Of a stretch of DNA of 61,684 nt, positions 1-61,684 are shown piece by piece. Origin of the DNA: a virus (Duplodnaviria; Caudoviricetes); the IMG/VR virus record IMGVR_UViG_3300044698_000167, positions 1 to 61,684 of that record. One strand, 5' to 3'. Within the stretch, counting starts at the first letter, position 1, and each line of letters begins with the position of its first letter. The position numbers and the translations under genes were made by a program. Under the pieces are notes generated by a model, which saw only the letters and a program-made list of their open reading frames with translations, was not told the origin of the DNA and made no database searches.

Positions 1-15
1 CGCGCACCGAAGCCG
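1..15. repeat. 15-bp terminal direct repeat (left copy); contig circularises
   Basis: cgcgcaccgaagccg at 1-15 equals 61670-61684. Confidence 0.95.
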
Positions 16-4759: not shown

Positions 4760-4843
4760 CGGGTTGCGGGACAGGGGGACCCGTAGTTTGATTAAATCCG
4801 GAAGGACGGGGACGGCCCGTCCGCCGACAGACCCGGAGGAACG

Positions 4844-24844: not shown

Positions 24845-25002
24845 GGTGTGGTCGGTGTGGGGAGTGTGGGGAACAGACCCGTTACAACCATACGTCTGGC
24901 TTAGTGAGTCAAATGATCATGGTCTGTGTGGGGGTGTTCAGTGACCGAGCCATATGGGTTCCCAGGCCGGGGCCCACACTTTCCACACCGCCCACACTCT
25001 GC
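24845..25002. repeat. Origin-like element, copy A (GTGTGG iterons flanking an AT-richer core)
   Basis: Inverted homolog of 50735-50888; 30 bp identical plus four conserved blocks. Confidence 0.8.
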
Positions 25003-25044
25003 TTCCCGGTAAGACTCCTGGGACCGGTCACTCAGCGTGACTGT

Positions 25045-25437
25045 CTACAGGGCCTGCCGCAGAGCTTCGATCATGAAATTGTTCGGCTTCGTCCCCGGGT
25101 GGTGGACGATCTTCGCGTAGATGATGCGGCCGTTGACCGTGAACCGGAGCACCCCTCCCGGCCGCCTGGGTCTGATGATGTGCTTCGCGGTCCCGTTGAC
25201 CACGTAGATGCTGGCCGGATGCGTGGACGTGATCACCCCTACCGGCCCATCTGCGCGGTAGTCGACCCGGGTCCTGATGCCTGAGCCCATGCTGCCCGGT
25301 GCAAGGCGCTCAGCGGCTGCCTGGACGCGTCCCGCGCGCCGTTGCAGGTTCCTGTCCACCAGACCCCCGGGAAGGCGCAGGAGACGCGCTATACGGCCAT
25401 GGTCCAGCCGGAACGAGGTGCTCACGTTGAAGGACAC
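25045..25437 (-). CDS. HK97 gp10-like neck/tail-completion protein
   Basis: YVVNGTAKHIIRPR...VHHPGTKPNNFM. Confidence 0.8.
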   Translation of the reverse strand: MSFNVSTSFRLDHGRIARLLRLPGGLVDRNLQRRAGRVQAAAERLAPGSMGSGIRTRVDYRADGPVGVITSTHPASIYVVNGTAKHIIRPRRPGGVLRFTVNGRIIYAKIVHHPGTKPNNFMIEALRQAL

Positions 25438-25535
25438 GTGTCCATTGTCCCGCCAAGGGCCTGCTGTACCTGCCGGAGACCGGGCTGGAGGTGCCGCCCC
25501 CTCGTGAACGAGGGGGTCCTACGGGGCCCCTCTCG

Positions 25536-26051
25536 TCAGTTCCGGAGCAGCGCTACCAGGAACCGGAGCTCGTTGCCGACGCACCCGCCGGACGGGCCCT
25601 GTGCCACCAGGGGGTTGATGAAGAAGTCGATGATCTCCCGGTCCGGCTGCGCCCGCATCGCGCACAGGGTCACGGTGACCGACTGGAGCAGCTCGTGGGC
25701 GTCGGTCAGGATCTCCTGAGCGGATGCGTCCAGCGCGGCGGTCGTGGGCGCGAGATCATCCCCCTCCGGGTTGGGGGCGCAGCGGATGAGCTGGACCACG
25801 AACTCACCCACATCCCAGGCCGCGTCACACGCACCCGCACCGATCTGCGTGGTGAGCTGCGCGGGGAAGGTGTCGGAGAGATACACCCGGGCCACGGAGA
25901 CGGCCAGCAGACCGCAGTCACAGGCGTCCCACGCGATGGCCCCGGGGACGACACAGGACCGGTCGGGCAGCGTGGTCAGGTCCGCCATGACCGCGGCCCG
26001 GACCGTCTCCGCCACGGTGTACCACTTGAGGGACCCGGTGATGAGCGGCAT
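25536..26051 (-). CDS. Tail terminator-like protein
   Basis: AWDACDCGLLAV...RCAP...GPSGGCVG; position. Confidence 0.7.
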   Translation of the reverse strand: MPLITGSLKWYTVAETVRAAVMADLTTLPDRSCVVPGAIAWDACDCGLLAVSVARVYLSDTFPAQLTTQIGAGACDAAWDVGEFVVQLIRCAPNPEGDDLAPTTAALDASAQEILTDAHELLQSVTVTLCAMRAQPDREIIDFFINPLVAQGPSGGCVGNELRFLVALLRN

Positions 26052-26144
26052 GGGGCCAGGCTAGTCCGTCGGCTTGAGGCCCCGCCCCGCCCGGCCTAAG
26101 CTTTTCTTAATTCAGACAGACAGAGACACAACGACGGAGGAATC

Positions 26145-26369
26145 ATGATCATCACGGTCAACGTGGCTGTGCTGCTGGCGGTCATCGTGTACCTGCGGGT
26201 CCGGCGTGCGGTCGCGCCCCGGACCCGGGCGGATCAGTGGGTGACCGTGGCGCTCGTCCTGTCCCTGGGCCTGCTCCTGTACCCGACGGACACGGGCCGG
26301 TTCCTGTCCCGGATTCTCGGGGCCTTCCTGGGGTCCCTCGGACAGGCCCTGTCTGCTGTCGCGCTCTAG
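26145..26369 (+). CDS. Small 2-TM membrane protein, antisense to the structural operon
   Basis: AT-rich element and gacggaggaatcATG; two hydrophobic helices. Confidence 0.75.
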   Translation: MIITVNVAVLLAVIVYLRVRRAVAPRTRADQWVTVALVLSLGLLLYPTDTGRFLSRILGAFLGSLGQALSAVAL

Positions 26370-26389
26370 GTGCTGCGCTTGAGCGTGGT

Positions 26390-26464
26390 CTGTGGTTTAC
26401 TTAATTCCGAGCGGAACTGTTCAAGAACGACTGCCCGCCAGGATAAAACCCCAGGTGAAAGAGA
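26390..26464 (+). promoter_or_regulatory. Promoter element and leader of the CRISPR mini-array
   Basis: ctgtggtttacttaattc identical to 820-837; A-rich end ataaaaccccaggtgaaagaga. Confidence 0.65.
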
Positions 26465-26608
26465 CTGCTCCCCGCGCACGCGGGGATGATCCCGGGCGCT
26501 GCGCATGTGCCTGGGCTGGGTCGGCCCTGCTCCCCGCGCACGCGGGGATGATCCGCAGGCCCTTGCGGACCCGGTCGGTGAGGTCGGCTGCTCCCCGCGC
26601 ACGCGGGG
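26465..26608 (+). CRISPR. Type I-E mini-array: 2 full 29-bp repeats, a 21-bp terminal repeat, 2 spacers; no cas genes
   Basis: ctgctccccgcgcacgcggggatgatcc(c/g) at 26465-26493 and 26527-26555; truncated copy at 26588-26608; spacers 26494-26526 (33 bp) and 26556-26587 (32 bp); CCCCGC/GCGGGG hairpin. Confidence 0.95.
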
Positions 26609-26674
26609 GTGTACAACGTGGACCGCCCTACGTGCCCGCTCTGCGGACCGTGGGGCGGTCCACGTTGTACACCC
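26607..26674. terminator. 22-bp perfect inverted repeat closing the mini-array
   Basis: gggtgtacaacgtggaccgccc 26607-26628 / gggcggtccacgttgtacaccc 26653-26674. Confidence 0.65.
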
Positions 26675-27464
26675 GGGACCGCTGTCTCAAGCCGTACGGA
26701 TTCCACGTGGACAGGAAGATGTCGACCAGGTACAACCCCGTGCGCCCCTCGCGGAAAAGAGCCCCCACATCCGGGTAGCTGATCGTCACGCCCTGGCGCA
26801 CCAGCTGCTGCAAGCCGGTCGGCAGCTTGCAGTCCCCGCCCTGTGCGGCGCGGATGATCTCGCAGGCCAGCGCCCCCACGGCCAGTTCTGCTCCGGCGGG
26901 CAGCGCCTCCCCGTACGCAGCCGTCACCGACCACGTGTCTGCCTCTGTGTCGTCCTTGTTCAGGTCGTTGCACCGGGGCCAGACGCCCCCGTCTGTGCGC
27001 ACCACGAGCCGGTTGTTGTCCAGCCGGTACGAGCCGGTCACCATCGGCGTGCCGTCGATCTTGATTTCAATGATCTCGTACACGGGTGCGGGCAGCACGA
27101 ACTCGCTGACCTGCGTACACGAGCAGGTACCCGGGCAGGACTCGCAGACCAGGTTGAACCACAGGCCGCCGATCAGCGCAGGCTGCGGGTAGTAACTCGA
27201 CTGCCAGGACGGGCCGAAGTCGTCGTACATCCGGCCCGAGTAGCAGTCCCTCCGGCACGGGCGCAGCGTCACATTGCACAGCCCGAACCGCATCCCCGTC
27301 ATCGCCCACAGGACCTCGGTCGCAGTGGACACCGCCAGGCCCGTGAGGGTCGGGCTGACCGCGGAGATGTCGCAGGTCCACTCAACGGGCCAGTCGGAGC
27401 ACGGGCCTGTGAGACCGCCGGTACCAGAGAGAACCGCCTGCTCGGTCGGGTTGATGACGGGCAC
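26628..27464 (-). CDS. Head-to-tail adaptor
   Basis: LWAMTGMRFGLC..TLRPC...RQGVT...TGLYLVDIFL..WNP. Confidence 0.8.
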   Translation of the reverse strand: MPVINPTEQAVLSGTGGLTGPCSDWPVEWTCDISAVSPTLTGLAVSTATEVLWAMTGMRFGLCNVTLRPCRRDCYSGRMYDDFGPSWQSSYYPQPALIGGLWFNLVCESCPGTCSCTQVSEFVLPAPVYEIIEIKIDGTPMVTGSYRLDNNRLVVRTDGGVWPRCNDLNKDDTEADTWSVTAAYGEALPAGAELAVGALACEIIRAAQGGDCKLPTGLQQLVRQGVTISYPDVGALFREGRTGLYLVDIFLSTWNPYGLRQRSRVYNVDRPTVRRAGT

Positions 27465-27473
27465 GGCGCCCCC

Positions 27474-28481
27474 TTACGCGACTGTGTTGTCGATGATGTC
27501 ACCGCGGGCTGCGAGCGCGGTGAGCAGAGACGCAAGGGCCGCGTTGCCGCCCCGGCTGCCGGTGATGGTCGCCTGCCCCACCGGGCCAGATCCGTGGAAG
27601 CCGACTGTGTCCGTCACCCCGTCCAGCGTGTGGACCCGGGCGCCGAACGCGCTCGCATTGAACTGCGTTTCCGCAGTCACGTGCAGGAGCGGAGTCCCGG
27701 ACTCCAGGCGGAGGTAGTTGTTCTGTACGCCCGTGAAGTCCCCGCCTGGAAAGGTGCTGATGAACCAGTCAGCCCCGCCGGACTCGGTGTCCAGCGCTCC
27801 GCCCCCGCGCCTGAAGCGGTACGCCTTGCCCGTGCCCTGGATGACGAAGTCACCATCGGTCGCCAGGGTGTCGGCCACCGGGCGGTACAGATTCGTATCC
27901 GGGGCGACGACGCCGCCCCCGAATTCGATGGTGCCACCCGCCCGGAGGATGATCCTCCGGGCCGTGTCCGTGTCGACACGTACCGAGATGACCGGGTCTG
28001 TAGTGGCCGTTCCGATACCGACCAAGATGTCGTGGACGTGCACGTGCCCGTTCAGGTCGACGGAGCCTGCGATGACGACGGAGCCGTCGTCGGCGATGGT
28101 CACGGTGGAGTCTGTGAGCACCAGCCCGGTGACGTCGTCGAAGCGGGCGACCGCATTGTCTGTGACCGCCCCGGCCCCGCTGATCTTCGAGGCCAGCGCC
28201 GTGGTCAGGTCCGCCTGCGTCACTGGCTGAGCCGCTGCGCCTACCGCGATCTCGAATGCTTCAGTGTCGATGTGAACCCAGTACTCCCCCTCCTCAGCCC
28301 AGAAGGTGAGGACACCGGCCGCACTGGTGGTGGCCGGGTTTGCCAGGGGGATCGTTCCGGCCGCGTCAGCCCACAGCGTGGCGAGGGTGTTCACGGCATG
28401 CTCGAACACCCTCGCGGGGATGCTGGCCGCGAGGGTCCCCGAGGGGAACCAGTAGGTGTCGGTGTACTGGGCTAGTGCCAT
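27474..28481 (-). CDS. Putative virion fibre/decoration protein
   Basis: Within the structural operon; ANPATTSAAGVLTFWAEEG; TDNAVARFD; DTNLYR. Confidence 0.6.
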   Translation of the reverse strand: MALAQYTDTYWFPSGTLAASIPARVFEHAVNTLATLWADAAGTIPLANPATTSAAGVLTFWAEEGEYWVHIDTEAFEIAVGAAAQPVTQADLTTALASKISGAGAVTDNAVARFDDVTGLVLTDSTVTIADDGSVVIAGSVDLNGHVHVHDILVGIGTATTDPVISVRVDTDTARRIILRAGGTIEFGGGVVAPDTNLYRPVADTLATDGDFVIQGTGKAYRFRRGGGALDTESGGADWFISTFPGGDFTGVQNNYLRLESGTPLLHVTAETQFNASAFGARVHTLDGVTDTVGFHGSGPVGQATITGSRGGNAALASLLTALAARGDIIDNTVA

Positions 28482-60419: not shown

Positions 60420-60466
60420 CCGCTGTGGTTTAATTAAATGAAAGCTCAGCGGCAGACGGAGGAATA

Positions 60467-61075
60467 GTGGACGTGCGGAATATCCCGGCAGCTCTGGCAC
60501 GCACTGTGGCGGAGCGGGAACACTACATGCACCGCAAACCCGTGGTGTCCTTCGCCTTCGGGCTGTTCGACGGAGACGACCTGGCGGGGATCTGCACACT
60601 GGGAACCCCTGCCAGCCGTCATCTCCAATCGGGTGCCTGCCCCTCGGACCCGTCCAGGGTCTTCGAGCTGAACAGGTTGTGGGTGCACGACCGGATGCCG
60701 GGGAATACCGAGTCGTGGTTCATCTCCAGGGTGCTCAAGCAGCTCCCGCCGCTGATCGCGGTGTCCTACGCAGACACGGTGCAGGGGCATATGGGCTACG
60801 TGTACCGGGCCTGTAACTTCCGGTACGCAGGGTGGACTGACATGGAGCGGAAGACCCCGAGATATGACTACCTGCCGGAGGACCCGGGGACGCACACACG
60901 GGACGCGTTCCGCAACGGGTACACGAGCCGGGTCAGGCGCCGCCCGAAGGTGCGGTACTGGACCGTGACCGGGAACCGGGCAGAGAGAAAGCATCTGCTC
61001 AGGCTGTCTGGCTGGCAGTCCCTGGACTGGAAGAAACTCCCGCCACCGGTAGAGCACGTGCATCACAGGCTGTAA
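60467..61075 (+). CDS. Mom-like DNA modification protein (GNAT fold)
   Basis: HYMHR...FGLF...ELNRLW...NTESWFISR...SYAD..QGHMGYVYRACNF. Confidence 0.8.
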   Translation: MDVRNIPAALARTVAEREHYMHRKPVVSFAFGLFDGDDLAGICTLGTPASRHLQSGACPSDPSRVFELNRLWVHDRMPGNTESWFISRVLKQLPPLIAVSYADTVQGHMGYVYRACNFRYAGWTDMERKTPRYDYLPEDPGTHTRDAFRNGYTSRVRRRPKVRYWTVTGNRAERKHLLRLSGWQSLDWKKLPPPVEHVHHRL

Positions 61076-61467: not shown

Positions 61468-61684
61468 GTGAACGTATTGACACAGCGGCTGCGCCTTGCC
61501 GCTGATTACCTCGGCGAGCACGGCTGGGCCCAGGGAGCAGAGCTGGATGACGGCCGTGTCTGCCTGACCGGTGCGATCCGTTACTGCGCTCCGCAGACAG
61601 GGGATGAGTACGTGATCCGCGCCGTACTGCGCAGCCGGGGTACAGCTGAGTCCTGGAACGACACGGAGACGCGCACCGAAGCCG
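61468..61684 (+). CDS. 5' part of junction-spanning protein (213 aa in total)
   Basis: gacggaggaacccGTG; HGWAQG...VCLTGAI...WND..RT; continues into 1..440. Confidence 0.85.
   Translation, partial: MNVLTQRLRLAADYLGEHGWAQGAELDDGRVCLTGAIRYCAPQTGDEYVIRAVLRSRGTAESWNDTETRTEA
61670..61684. repeat. 15-bp terminal direct repeat (right copy)
   Basis: Identical to 1-15. Confidence 0.95.

What the first reader, a model, noticed from the sequence alone, without database searches (positions are those of the whole stretch)
26390..26608. Cas-less type I-E CRISPR mini-array trimmed to the minimum needed for two crRNAs
Seen: two 29-bp repeats differing only at the last base; spacers gggcgctgcgcatgtgcctgggctgggtcggcc and caggcccttgcggacccggtcggtgaggtcgg; a third repeat that stops at nt 21; a leader-like segment with the phage promoter element; no cas genes in the genome. 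Established: Cas6e cuts at the 3' base of the hairpin leaving an 8-nt handle, so the 21-nt remnant is exactly what crRNA 2 needs. The last I-E repeat base derives from the protospacer/PAM. Phage mini-arrays can target competing elements. Both spacers have an all-GC3 reading frame (ALRMCLGWVG or PTQPRHMRSA; DLTDRVRKGL), suggesting actinobacterial coding targets. Inference: the element loads host Cascade to attack rival phages or plasmids, repress host genes, or act as an RNA decoy, co-regulated with its conjugation genes.
Basis: partly seen in the sequence, partly recalled or inferred. Interest (0 to 1): 0.9.

Follow-up and report, generated by a model that had tools for sequence, protein, structure and literature searches.

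The report
Phage-borne cas-less CRISPR mini-array
An uncultured phage of Streptomyces-like bacteria carries a tiny two-guide CRISPR array, copied with part of its leader from a host array and wired to a phage promoter; it probably borrows the host's CRISPR proteins, a known kind of phage trick whose targets here remain unknown.

Summary
Window 26465-26608 holds two complete 29-nt type I-E repeats, canonical 33- and 32-nt spacers, and a third repeat that stops right after its hairpin.

New here:
- The 57 nt upstream (26408-26464) are homologous to genuine actinobacterial I-E CRISPR leaders (nhmmer E=2.9e-4, the only significant hit in 61.7 kb).
- That leader remnant is fused to a recurrent phage promoter-like 18-mer.
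- The unit ends in a 26-bp hairpin whose outer arm is an inverted copy of the neighbouring gene's end.
- The whole 576-bp block (a 74-aa membrane ORF plus the array) is an insertion between two structural genes. These genes abut in 12 of 15 related phages, and none of the 15 has the repeat.
- No Cas6e, Cas7e or Cse1 is encoded.

No protospacer was found in any phage, plasmid, metagenome or genome collection searched, nor in 30 Streptomyces cse1 loci.

Best reading (0.45): a captured leader-proximal array end that makes two crRNAs for the host's Cascade, aimed at rival elements. Rivals are a crRNA competitor, a recent neutral capture, and a cas-silencing regulator.

This is a new member of a known kind. 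The scan has already noted similar I-E mimic arrays in at least 7 other genomes.

The parts
26096..26113 (+). Weaker copy of the phage start-associated (promoter-like) element, upstream of the 74-aa ORF
   Evidence: CTAAGCTTTTCTTAATTC, followed by GACGGAGGAA and ATG, aligned with the copies at 820 and 26390.
26145..26369 (+). 74-aa small membrane-type protein gene, co-inserted with the array
   Evidence: GC3 is 0.91. It has 28 homologues, including Streptomyces hypothetical proteins at 45-51% identity in alignment A2. There is no Pfam or PHROG hit. It is absent from 15 related phage loci.
26372..26389 (+). Small hairpin with a T-rich tail between the ORF and the array unit (weak terminator-like site)
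   Evidence: Terminator-like scan, (1 found; shuffles average 0.4).
26390..26407 (+). Phage promoter-like 18-mer CTGTGGTTTACTTAATTC driving the array
   Evidence: Identical copy at 820-837 and a 3-mismatch copy at 60423; expected 0.01. I read related + strand sites in the stretches beginning at 4766, 11536, 56836 and 61409, where an SD and a start codon follow; a ninth stretch, beginning at 61056, showed no clear copy. This is the only copy I read with no SD and start codon after it. Promoter activity is inferred.
26408..26464 (+). Remnant of a host-type type I-E CRISPR leader (repeat-proximal part)
   Evidence: A profile of 72 host leaders with no repeat included hits 26411-26460 at E=2.9e-4; the next best hit in the window has E=1. 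The best pairwise scores are to Streptomyces and Embleya leaders: 17-12 against a mean of 5.5 (sd 3.5) over 192 leaders. Conserved blocks are visible by eye.
26465..26493 (+). Repeat 1 (29 nt, complete)
   Evidence: The 24-mer is shared with at least 120 actinobacterial genome stretches.
26494..26526 (+). Spacer 1 (33 nt)
   Evidence: 62-nt units make up 68 of 1586 host units. One codon phase is G/C at 11 of 11 positions. No target was found.
26527..26555 (+). Repeat 2 (29 nt, complete; last base G)
26556..26587 (+). Spacer 2 (32 nt)
   Evidence: Phase G/C counts of 11/11, 5/11 and 8/10 fit minus-sense coding DNA of a high-GC organism. No target was found.
26588..26608 (+). Repeat 3, truncated after the hairpin (21 nt exact; next base G instead of A)
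   Evidence: G at that position occurs in 48 of 1586 host repeats.
26607..26674 (.). 26-bp-arm inverted repeat (bidirectional terminator-like hairpin). The right arm and loop are the coding 3' end of the adaptor gene; the left arm is an inverted copy of it.
   Evidence: Inverted repeat I1 is 96% complementary and forms in the fold. The right-arm sequence is conserved in relatives L135, L127 and L141; the left arm is absent there.
26628..27464 (-). Head-tail adaptor gene (right flank of the insertion)
   Evidence: phrog_783, E=8e-66; 15 IMG/VR relatives.
25536..26051 (-). Structural-module gene of unknown function (left flank of the insertion)
   Evidence: phrog_810, E=1e-15. Its homologue abuts the adaptor gene in 12 of 15 relatives.

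Best explanation
The element is a viral CRISPR mini-array. About 200 bp from the leader-proximal end of an actinobacterial type I-E array (roughly 26408-26608) was captured by the phage. The captured piece holds the repeat-proximal leader, repeat 1, spacer 1, repeat 2, spacer 2 and the hairpin half of repeat 3. It now lies downstream of a phage promoter-like element and upstream of a strong hairpin, inside a 576-bp accessory ('moron') insertion in the virion-gene module.

Proposed mechanism (inferred):
- The phage promoter makes a short pre-crRNA.
- The host's Cas6e binds the three repeat hairpins and cuts at their 3' bases. This gives a 62-nt and a 61-nt crRNA, each with an 8-nt 5' handle and a 21-nt 3' hairpin.
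- Host Cascade and Cas3 then use these guides against other mobile elements (rival phages, plasmids or integrative elements) that carry the matching coding sequences.
- The carrier phage thereby gains a form of superinfection exclusion without encoding any Cas protein.

Shown: the anatomy, the host-array origin, the insertion, the absence of cas genes, and the absence of self-targeting. Inferred: transcription, processing, loading and the target class.
For: 1. The repeats are genuine and intact. There are 3 copies of the 21-mer against 0.04 expected. The same 24-mer occurs in at least 120 actinobacterial genome stretches with a 61-nt period. In one of these genomes the arrays lie about 3.2 kb from a Cse1 gene.
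2. Spacer lengths are canonical (33 and 32 nt). They are not the 17-24 nt of regulatory viral mimics. Each spacer has an all-G/C codon phase, as expected of spacers taken from high-GC coding DNA.
3. A host-type leader remnant sits directly upstream in the right orientation, so the piece came from a working array end.
4. A dedicated copy of a recurrent phage + strand start-associated element lies upstream, identical to the copy at 820-837. A 26-bp hairpin lies downstream.
5. The phage has no Cas6e, Cas7e or Cse1 and no self-match of either spacer at up to 3 mismatches.
6. Potential hosts with I-E are common: 48 of 121 sampled Streptomyces genomes have Cse1.
7. Group-level host hints point to Streptomyces. 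Capsid homologues are named from two Streptomyces strains. Adaptor homologues occur in 14 of 301 Streptomyces genomes. ORF74 homologues occur in Streptomyces species.
8. This kind of element and this function are established for other viruses (passages read in PMC11656645, and PMC6858448).
9. The same 3-kb stretch is held without any difference in three sediment runs, which may include the source sample.
Against: - No protospacer was found anywhere. In cultured phages the best matches have E of 0.02-0.3 and in plasmids E of 0.02-0.9. There were no exact matches in IMG/VR or in JGI metagenome contigs.
- Whole-record BLAST of 18 viral contigs, including the 15 relatives, gave nothing longer than 17 nt in the spacer parts.
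- At up to 3 mismatches, S1 and S2 each matched 0 of 301 Streptomyces genomes, and S2 matched 0 of 251 genomes of the family of a Paractinoplanes genome.
- Published viral mini-arrays mostly target relatives of the carrier. That is not seen here.
- None of the 15 relatives has the array, so there is no conservation to argue for selection.
- The host is not identified. None of 1586 host spacers matches the phage over 24 nt or more.
- The base after the third hairpin is G, as in only 3% of host repeats, so 3' processing of crRNA 2 is uncertain.
- There are no RNA data.
Confidence: 0.45

Rival explanations
1. Competitor or decoy RNA (anti-CRISPR by dilution). The array is expressed to flood host Cas6e and Cascade with harmless guides, so fewer complexes carry host crRNAs against this phage. 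What the spacers match would not matter.
For: - A canonical non-targeting crRNA reduced interference much as the solitary-repeat Racr did (passage on Extended Data Fig. 4e,f of PMC10651486).
- The array has its own copy of a phage promoter-like element and no detectable target in any collection searched.
- Other phage contigs with the same repeat carry forms that look anti-CRISPR: a solitary repeat in L005 and short-spacer arrays in L004 and L006. The L004 guide matches cas7e codons.
Against: - Solitary repeats or short pseudo-spacers are the described forms. Two exact-length spacers with coding-type periodicity and a retained leader are not needed for a decoy.
- Only two units are present.
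- No acr gene was recognised nearby, although small ORFs were not searched against any Acr library.
Confidence: 0.22
2. Recent, selectively neutral capture. A fragment of a host array was picked up by illegitimate recombination into a known insertion hot spot and has simply not decayed yet.
For: - It is present in this phage only: 0 of 15 relatives have it.
- Both ends look like recombination junctions. On the left, the leader homology begins right after the phage 18-mer, where host leaders read ...GATTC and the phage reads ...AATTC. On the right, the repeat's GGGG runs into an inverted duplication.
- The adaptor/phrog_810 junction carries unrelated inserts in 3 of 15 relatives.
- No target was found.
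Against: - The captured piece lies exactly between a promoter-like element and a terminator-like hairpin, in the sense orientation.
- It keeps precisely what two crRNAs need.
- Repeats 1 and 2 are undamaged.
- The identical sequence is held in runs dated 2020 and 2025, though these may be one site or the source sample.
Confidence: 0.23
3. Regulatory guide array (Cracr-like). The guides steer host Cascade to cas or other defence promoters or genes by partial complementarity and silence them.
For: - Viral I-E Cracr arrays with two or three spacers exist, including ones predicted to act on Actinomycetota (sections 7 and 8 of bioRxiv 10.1101/2024.10.29.618823).
- A contig sharing this repeat (L004) has a 21-nt guide matching the conserved NLNRDDT codons at the 5' end of cas7e.
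- Earlier notes of this scan report cas-directed guides in Streptomyces phages (unchecked).
Against: - The spacers are 33 and 32 nt, not 17-24 nt, and the repeats are canonical, not degenerate.
- The best ungapped matches to 30 Streptomyces cse1 loci (132,828 nt) are 24/33 and 24/32. Shuffled spacers reach these values in 6 of 60 and 3 of 60 trials.
- The one 24/33 hit falls in cas7e of a single locus, but the homologous site in 37 cas7e genes averages 12.9/33.
- The true host's cas locus could not be examined.
Confidence: 0.1

Closest known systems
Virus-borne mini-CRISPR arrays of the archaeal viruses SPV1 and SPV2 (Medvedeva et al. 2019, PMC6858448; passages read)
   Same: One or two spacers, no viral cas genes, repeats like those of host arrays, and a host-like leader in front. 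This led those authors to propose that host adaptation proteins can add spacers.
   Different: Those are archaeal type I systems with documented reciprocal targeting of the sister virus. Here the virus is a bacteriophage with type I-E repeats, only the repeat-proximal 50-57 nt of leader remain, the leader is fused to a phage promoter-like element, and no target is known.
[quoted passage not shown]
   Same: A cas-less array of one or two spacers in a tailed-phage genome, with repeats matching host arrays. The proposed role is inter-virus competition.
   Different: The 2019 discussion states that those phage mini-arrays lack leader regions; this one keeps a recognisable leader remnant. Most published spacers hit related viruses; these do not hit any of 15 relatives. 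I did not read the survey itself.
Cracr arrays, e.g. the Salmonella prophage CracrIE array (bioRxiv 10.1101/2024.10.29.618823; sections 7 and 8 and passages read)
   Same: A phage-borne type I-E repeat-spacer array of two or three units without cas genes, processed by host Cas6e. The last repeat is imperfect.
   Different: Cracr pseudo-spacers are short (24 and 21 nt in CracrIE) and match the casA promoter. Here the spacers are full length and no cas-locus match was found.
Racr RNA anti-CRISPRs (solitary repeat units; PMC10651486, passages read)
   Same: A CRISPR-repeat mimic behind a phage promoter, with no cas genes. Competition for Cas6 and Cas7 is a possible effect.
   Different: A Racr is a single repeat unit without a canonical spacer. 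This is a true repeat-spacer-repeat-spacer-repeat array.

Membership tests
Type I-E CRISPR array | 29-nt partly palindromic repeat of the kind found beside I-E cas genes | tested here: met
   The 24-mer is identical in at least 120 actinobacterial genome stretches. In genome G021 the arrays with this repeat lie at C19:8576-16481, about 3.2 kb from a Cse1 gene at C19:19725-21158 (E=1e-111).
Type I-E CRISPR array | Spacers of about 32 nt, giving a repeat period of about 61 nt | tested here: met
   The periods here are 62 and 61 nt. Among host units, 1472 of 1586 are 61 nt and 68 of 1586 are 62 nt.
Type I-E CRISPR array | Leader upstream of the first repeat | tested here: met
   A profile of 72 host leaders hits 26411-26460 at E=2.9e-4. 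Only the repeat-proximal 50-57 nt are present.
Type I-E CRISPR array | Adjacent cas operon | tested here: not met
   There is no Cas6e, Cas7e or Cse1 in the record, so the array is cas-less.
Viral CRISPR mini-array | One or two spacers in a virus genome that lacks cas genes | tested here: met
   There are two spacers. Phage genes are present: TerL, portal, capsid, tape measure and DNA polymerase. No cas genes were found.
Viral CRISPR mini-array | Repeats identical to those of the host's own CRISPR system | tested here: inconclusive
   The repeat is identical to natural arrays; the 28-mer is dominant in two Actinoplanes-group genomes (27 and 5 copies). The actual host is unknown. The leader, ORF74 and capsid relatives point to Streptomyces.
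Viral CRISPR mini-array | Spacers match other mobile elements, typically relatives of the carrier | tested here: not met
   No credible protospacer was found in any search. The exact-match scans would miss targets with even one mismatch.
Cracr array | Short pseudo-spacers (about 17-24 nt) | tested here: not met
   The spacers are 33 and 32 nt.
Cracr array | Pseudo-spacer complementary to a cas or creT promoter of the host | tested here: inconclusive
   There was no match above shuffled controls in 30 Streptomyces cse1 loci with 1.5-kb flanks. The host's own locus is not available.
Racr (solitary repeat unit) | A single repeat-like unit without a canonical spacer, behind a promoter | tested here: not met
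   There are three repeat units with two canonical spacers.
Any of the above | RNA made and processed by host Cas6e and loaded into Cascade | not testable with these tools
   No listed run holding the stretch is on record as RNA.

The most novel reading that the evidence does not exclude
Because the array keeps the conserved repeat-proximal leader and an intact first repeat, the host's Cas1-Cas2 could insert new spacers into the phage copy. A phage with no cas genes would then own a heritable, updatable immune memory that it carries from host to host and expresses from its own promoter. The atypical 33-nt first spacer might be such an in-phage acquisition.
Probability: 0.12. Interest if true: 0.7.

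Novelty: new member of a known kind. Interest (0 to 1): 0.36.

Why it matters
Cas-less arrays on viruses show how mobile elements turn host immunity to their own use. This example is useful because its origin can be read directly. It has a host leader remnant, two canonical spacers and a repeat cut at a recombination junction, all placed between a phage promoter-like element and a new terminator in an insertion hot spot.

It extends the leader-bearing form, described for archaeal viruses, to a tailed phage of high-GC actinomycetes. It also offers a compact test case for three questions: whether such arrays guide interference, whether they merely compete for Cas proteins, and whether they can be extended in trans by host Cas1-Cas2. 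It does not reveal a new principle.

Tried and rejected
Spacer targets (all negative):
- The window itself at up to 3 mismatches.
- Cultured phages by blastn. S1 hit 40 records, best E 0.3; S2 hit 87 records, best E 0.02. All are partial matches at chance level.
- PLSDB plasmids. S1 hit 18 records, best E 0.9; S2 hit 160 records, best 28/32 at E 0.02.
- IMG/VR, exact match, and JGI metagenome contigs, exact match.
- Whole records of 18 viral contigs.
- 301 Streptomyces genomes for each spacer, and 251 genomes of the family of a Paractinoplanes genome for S2 only.
- All fetched loci at nucleotide level; six-frame peptide search covered the loci fetched up, not L152-L193.

Host link: 1586 spacers from 120 host stretches were compared with the window. 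None matched over 24 nt or more.

cas-locus targeting: tested on 30 cse1 loci. The apparent S1 hit in cas7e of L175 was rejected after comparison with 37 cas7e genes.

Other dead ends:
- Repeat-like hits in relatives' records (L145, L146) are coding-sequence chance matches. The third weak hit, L147, was not examined.
- A 6-mismatch hit in L135, 3.7 kb from the adaptor gene, lacks the hairpin.
- Rfam gave no family at gathering score over the whole window or at E<=1 over 26300-26750.
- The global RNA fold pairs repeat 1 with repeat 3 and says nothing about co-transcriptional hairpins. Only the terminator hairpin is informative.
- The sigma-70 consensus scan found no promoter in 25900-26800.
- ORF74 homologues in two IMG/VR contigs have no repeats nearby.
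- 12 Streptomyces prophage adaptor loci have no repeats.
- Sequencing runs: no RNA holder is listed. Laid contigs show no form lacking or altering the array. The extra depth at 26414-26615 comes from other I-E repeat contigs in the same samples.

Supplementary tables of the Racr and Cracr papers, which may list actinophage candidates, were not seen.
Full report
What the window is. The 61,684-nt window is a whole IMG/VR virus record, classed as linear with a CheckV completeness estimate of 71%. Its ends overlap by 15 nt, which suggests a complete circular assembly. It encodes:
- a large terminase, a family A DNA polymerase and a D5-type primase-helicase;
- an 892-aa protein with coiled-coil-type Pfam hits, which I take to be the tape measure from its size and its place in the tail module, and a weak FtsK/SpoIIIE-HTH protein;
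- portal, major head, major tail and head-tail adaptor proteins;
- an amidase, a tailspike-like lyase, sugar enzymes and a Mom-like protein.
G+C is 65-71%. Cultured phages share less than 36% capsid identity.

The observation. The 21-mer CTGCTCCCCGCGCACGCGGGG occurs three times, at 26465, 26527 and 26588, against 0.04 expected by chance. Spacing is 62 and 61 nt.
- Repeats 1 and 2 are complete 29-mers that differ only at the last base.
- The spacers are 33 and 32 nt.
- The third repeat is exact for 21 nt, i.e. through the hairpin. It then reads G where the others read A.
In 1586 repeat-spacer units from 120 actinobacterial genome stretches that share the repeat, 93% have a 61-nt period and 4% a 62-nt period. 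The last repeat base varies (C 1354, G 115, T 95, A 22). The base after the hairpin is G in 3%. The array is therefore a normal type I-E array in miniature. The last-base difference is ordinary variation at the position that, from what I recall of E. coli I-E adaptation, comes in with the spacer.
The type assignment rests on association. In one Streptomyces genome the arrays with this repeat lie about 3 kb from a Cse1 gene. The window has no Cas6e, Cas7e or Cse1 in any frame.

Origin of the piece. The 80 nt before repeat 1 line up with host leaders. The conserved host blocks ...GAAAGTGCTCAGAACGG......GGTAAAC... and ...CAGGTCA... appear in the window as GAACTGTTCAAGAACGA, GGATAAAAC and CAGGTGA.
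- Pairwise, the best-scoring of 192 leaders are from Streptomyces and Embleya, with scores of 17-12 against a mean of 5.5 and sd of 3.5.
- A profile built from 72 of the 195 leaders I had extracted was used. I picked arrays of at least 5 repeats whose leader has the conserved motif near its end, and no repeat sequence was included. The profile finds one significant hit in the whole window, 26411-26460 (E=2.9e-4), directly upstream of repeat 1 and in the right orientation. The next best hit has E=1.
The array was therefore copied from the leader-proximal end of a real host array.

Left boundary. It abuts the 18-mer CTGTGGTTTACTTAATTC (26390-26407). This is identical to 820-837 and related to + strand sites in the stretches beginning at 4766, 11536, 26077, 56836, 60404 and 61409. 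At those sites GACGGAGGAA and a start codon follow 15-45 nt later. A ninth stretch that I read, beginning at 61056, shows no clear copy. The array's copy is the only one I read with no start codon after it. Promoter activity is an inference from position and recurrence. A sigma-70 consensus scan finds nothing here.

Right boundary. It is a 26-bp-arm inverted repeat (26607-26632 and 26649-26674). The right arm and the loop encode the conserved C-terminus of the head-tail adaptor, and the same sequence is present in relatives L135, L127 and L141. The left arm is an inverted copy found only here. Repeat 3 ends where this duplication starts. Its 'trimming' is therefore a recombination junction that happens to leave the hairpin intact.

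An insertion, not an ancestral feature. The adaptor protein has 15 relatives in IMG/VR.
- By tblastn coordinates, the adaptor gene and the next structural gene abut within about 20 nt in 12 of 15. The other 3 of 15 have unrelated inserts of about 140, 550-610 and 1180 nt.
- The window has 576 nt there (26052-26627), holding a 74-aa membrane-type ORF and the array.
- None of the 15 loci has the ORF or a repeat. Whole-record BLAST of those 15 contigs finds no repeat; of three weak partial hits I examined two, both in coding DNA.
- ORF74 belongs to a small conserved family with members in several Streptomyces species. Two viral contigs that carry it have no repeats, so the ORF and the array are not a fixed pair.

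Host. The host is not identified.
- The leader is most like Streptomyces and Embleya leaders.
- Named capsid homologues come from two Streptomyces strains at 61-63% identity.
- Adaptor homologues (36-46% identity) occur in 14 of 301 sampled Streptomyces genomes, none with repeats nearby in the 12 loci fetched.
- Cse1 is present in 48 of 121 sampled Streptomyces genomes.
- None of 1586 host spacers matches the phage.

Targets. Every search was negative. Tried and rejected lists each search with its numbers.
- Each spacer has one codon phase that is all G/C (11 of 11). For S2 the other phases are 5/11 and 8/10, the pattern of high-GC coding DNA. With spacer G+C near 0.77 this is only modest evidence, roughly 0.03 for both spacers by my estimate.
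- The spacers do not match 30 Streptomyces cse1 loci above shuffled controls.
- A 24/33 hit in one cas7e gene is not reproduced at the homologous site of 37 cas7e genes (mean 12.9).

How it most likely works. Three points come from established type I-E biology, which I recall and did not test here: Cas6e binds the repeat hairpin and cuts at its 3' base; the 8-nt remainder becomes the 5' handle of the next crRNA; and Cascade holds a 32-nt guide. On that basis the transcript from the 18-mer to the hairpin would yield crRNA 1 (8 + 33 + 21 = 62 nt) and crRNA 2 (8 + 32 + 21 = 61 nt).
- The published role of such viral mini-arrays is exclusion of competing elements through the host's effector. I give this reading 0.45.
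- A canonical non-targeting crRNA can also blunt host interference by competition. With no target in hand, that reading gets 0.22.
- Recent neutral capture gets 0.23, because no relative shares the array.
- A Cracr-type regulator gets 0.10. Cracr pseudo-spacers are 17-24 nt and match cas promoters, and neither holds here.

Comparison with what is known. Viral mini-arrays with one or two spacers and host-like repeats are established, as are solitary-repeat Racrs and short-spacer Cracr arrays. Leader-bearing mini-arrays are described for archaeal viruses. The same paper states that the phage mini-arrays known in 2019 lack leaders. Two full-text searches listed no title on mini-arrays in Streptomyces phages or actinophages; I judged by titles and abstract starts only. 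I could not see the supplementary tables of the Racr and Cracr papers, and the Cracr study reports Actinomycetota among its predicted targets. Earlier agents of this scan described I-E mimic arrays in Streptomyces-type phages in at least 7 other genomes. The present case is therefore one more member, notable for canonical spacers and a readable capture history.

Population data. Three sediment metagenome runs hold a roughly 9.06-kb unitig identical over 25000-28000. A fourth holds low-depth identical fragments. These may include the source sample and are not independent. No contig joins across the insert or alters the array.

Verdict. This is a new member of a known kind, of moderate interest.

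Noticed in passing
L004:640-760 (- strand; IMGVR_UViG_3300027711_000006): Two I-E-type repeats are separated by a 21-nt spacer and followed by a terminator hairpin. The spacer reads LNREDTN. It matches the conserved NLNRDDT codons at the 5' end of cas7e at 13-18 of 21 positions at 33 LNR[DE]D-coding sites in the fetched host loci, nearly all of them cas7e starts (best 18/21; 0 of 40 shuffles reach this). This looks like a cas7e-directed Cracr-type guide.
   Followed up: partly
L006:4010-4260 (- strand) and L023 (Streptosporangiaceae MAG): Five heterogeneous I-E repeats are spaced 49-50 nt apart, giving 20-21-nt spacers. The same arrangement is in a viral contig and in a MAG. One spacer's best hit is 17/21 in a cse1-flanking locus, and no shuffle reaches it (0 of 40). 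Targets were not worked out.
   Followed up: partly
L005:8040-8110 (- strand): A single I-E repeat sits behind an AT-richer stretch and is directly followed by a GC-rich hairpin. This is a solitary repeat unit of the Racr type.
   Followed up: no
window sites at about 820, 4784, 11556, 26096, 26390, 56857, 60423 and 61428 (+ strand): A recurrent AT-rich element (consensus roughly CTGTGGTTTAMTTAAT) lies 15-45 nt upstream of GACGGAGGAA plus a start codon. It precedes the putative transfer operon, ORF74, the array and the Mom-like gene. It is probably the phage's promoter for its + strand, non-structural genes.
   Followed up: partly
window 26052-26627; L128:4838-6017; L139:4754-5364: The junction between the head-tail adaptor gene and the next structural gene is an insertion hot spot. 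L128 carries about 1.18 kb that looks AT-richer (by eye), with three small opposite-strand ORFs and a 63-nt direct repeat. L139 carries about 0.6 kb.
   Followed up: partly
window 26607-26674: The terminator-like hairpin is built from the adaptor gene's own last codons plus an inverted duplicate of them. A strong hairpin therefore now sits inside the - strand virion operon between two formerly abutting genes. How late transcription passes it is unclear.
   Followed up: partly
window 1-15 and 61670-61684: The record's two ends are identical over 15 nt, consistent with a circular or circularly permuted complete genome, although IMG/VR classes it as linear with 71% completeness.
   Followed up: yes
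L152, L154, L155, L157, L166, L167, L177 (Streptomyces cse1 loci): Seven of the listed Cse1 matches lie in open frames of 1452-1680 aa, the size expected of a Cas3-Cse1 fusion.
   Followed up: no
window 26145-26369: ORF74 belongs to a conserved family of 69-74-aa proteins that look like two-pass membrane proteins (by eye). It has 28 homologues, several in Streptomyces chromosomes, and no known function. It may be a superinfection-exclusion or other accessory ('moron') gene.
   Followed up: partly
window 60467-61075: A Mom-family protein gene (PF25680, E=9e-30) lies behind a copy of the same promoter-like element. It is a likely DNA-modification counter-defence gene, expressed together with the array.
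   Followed up: no
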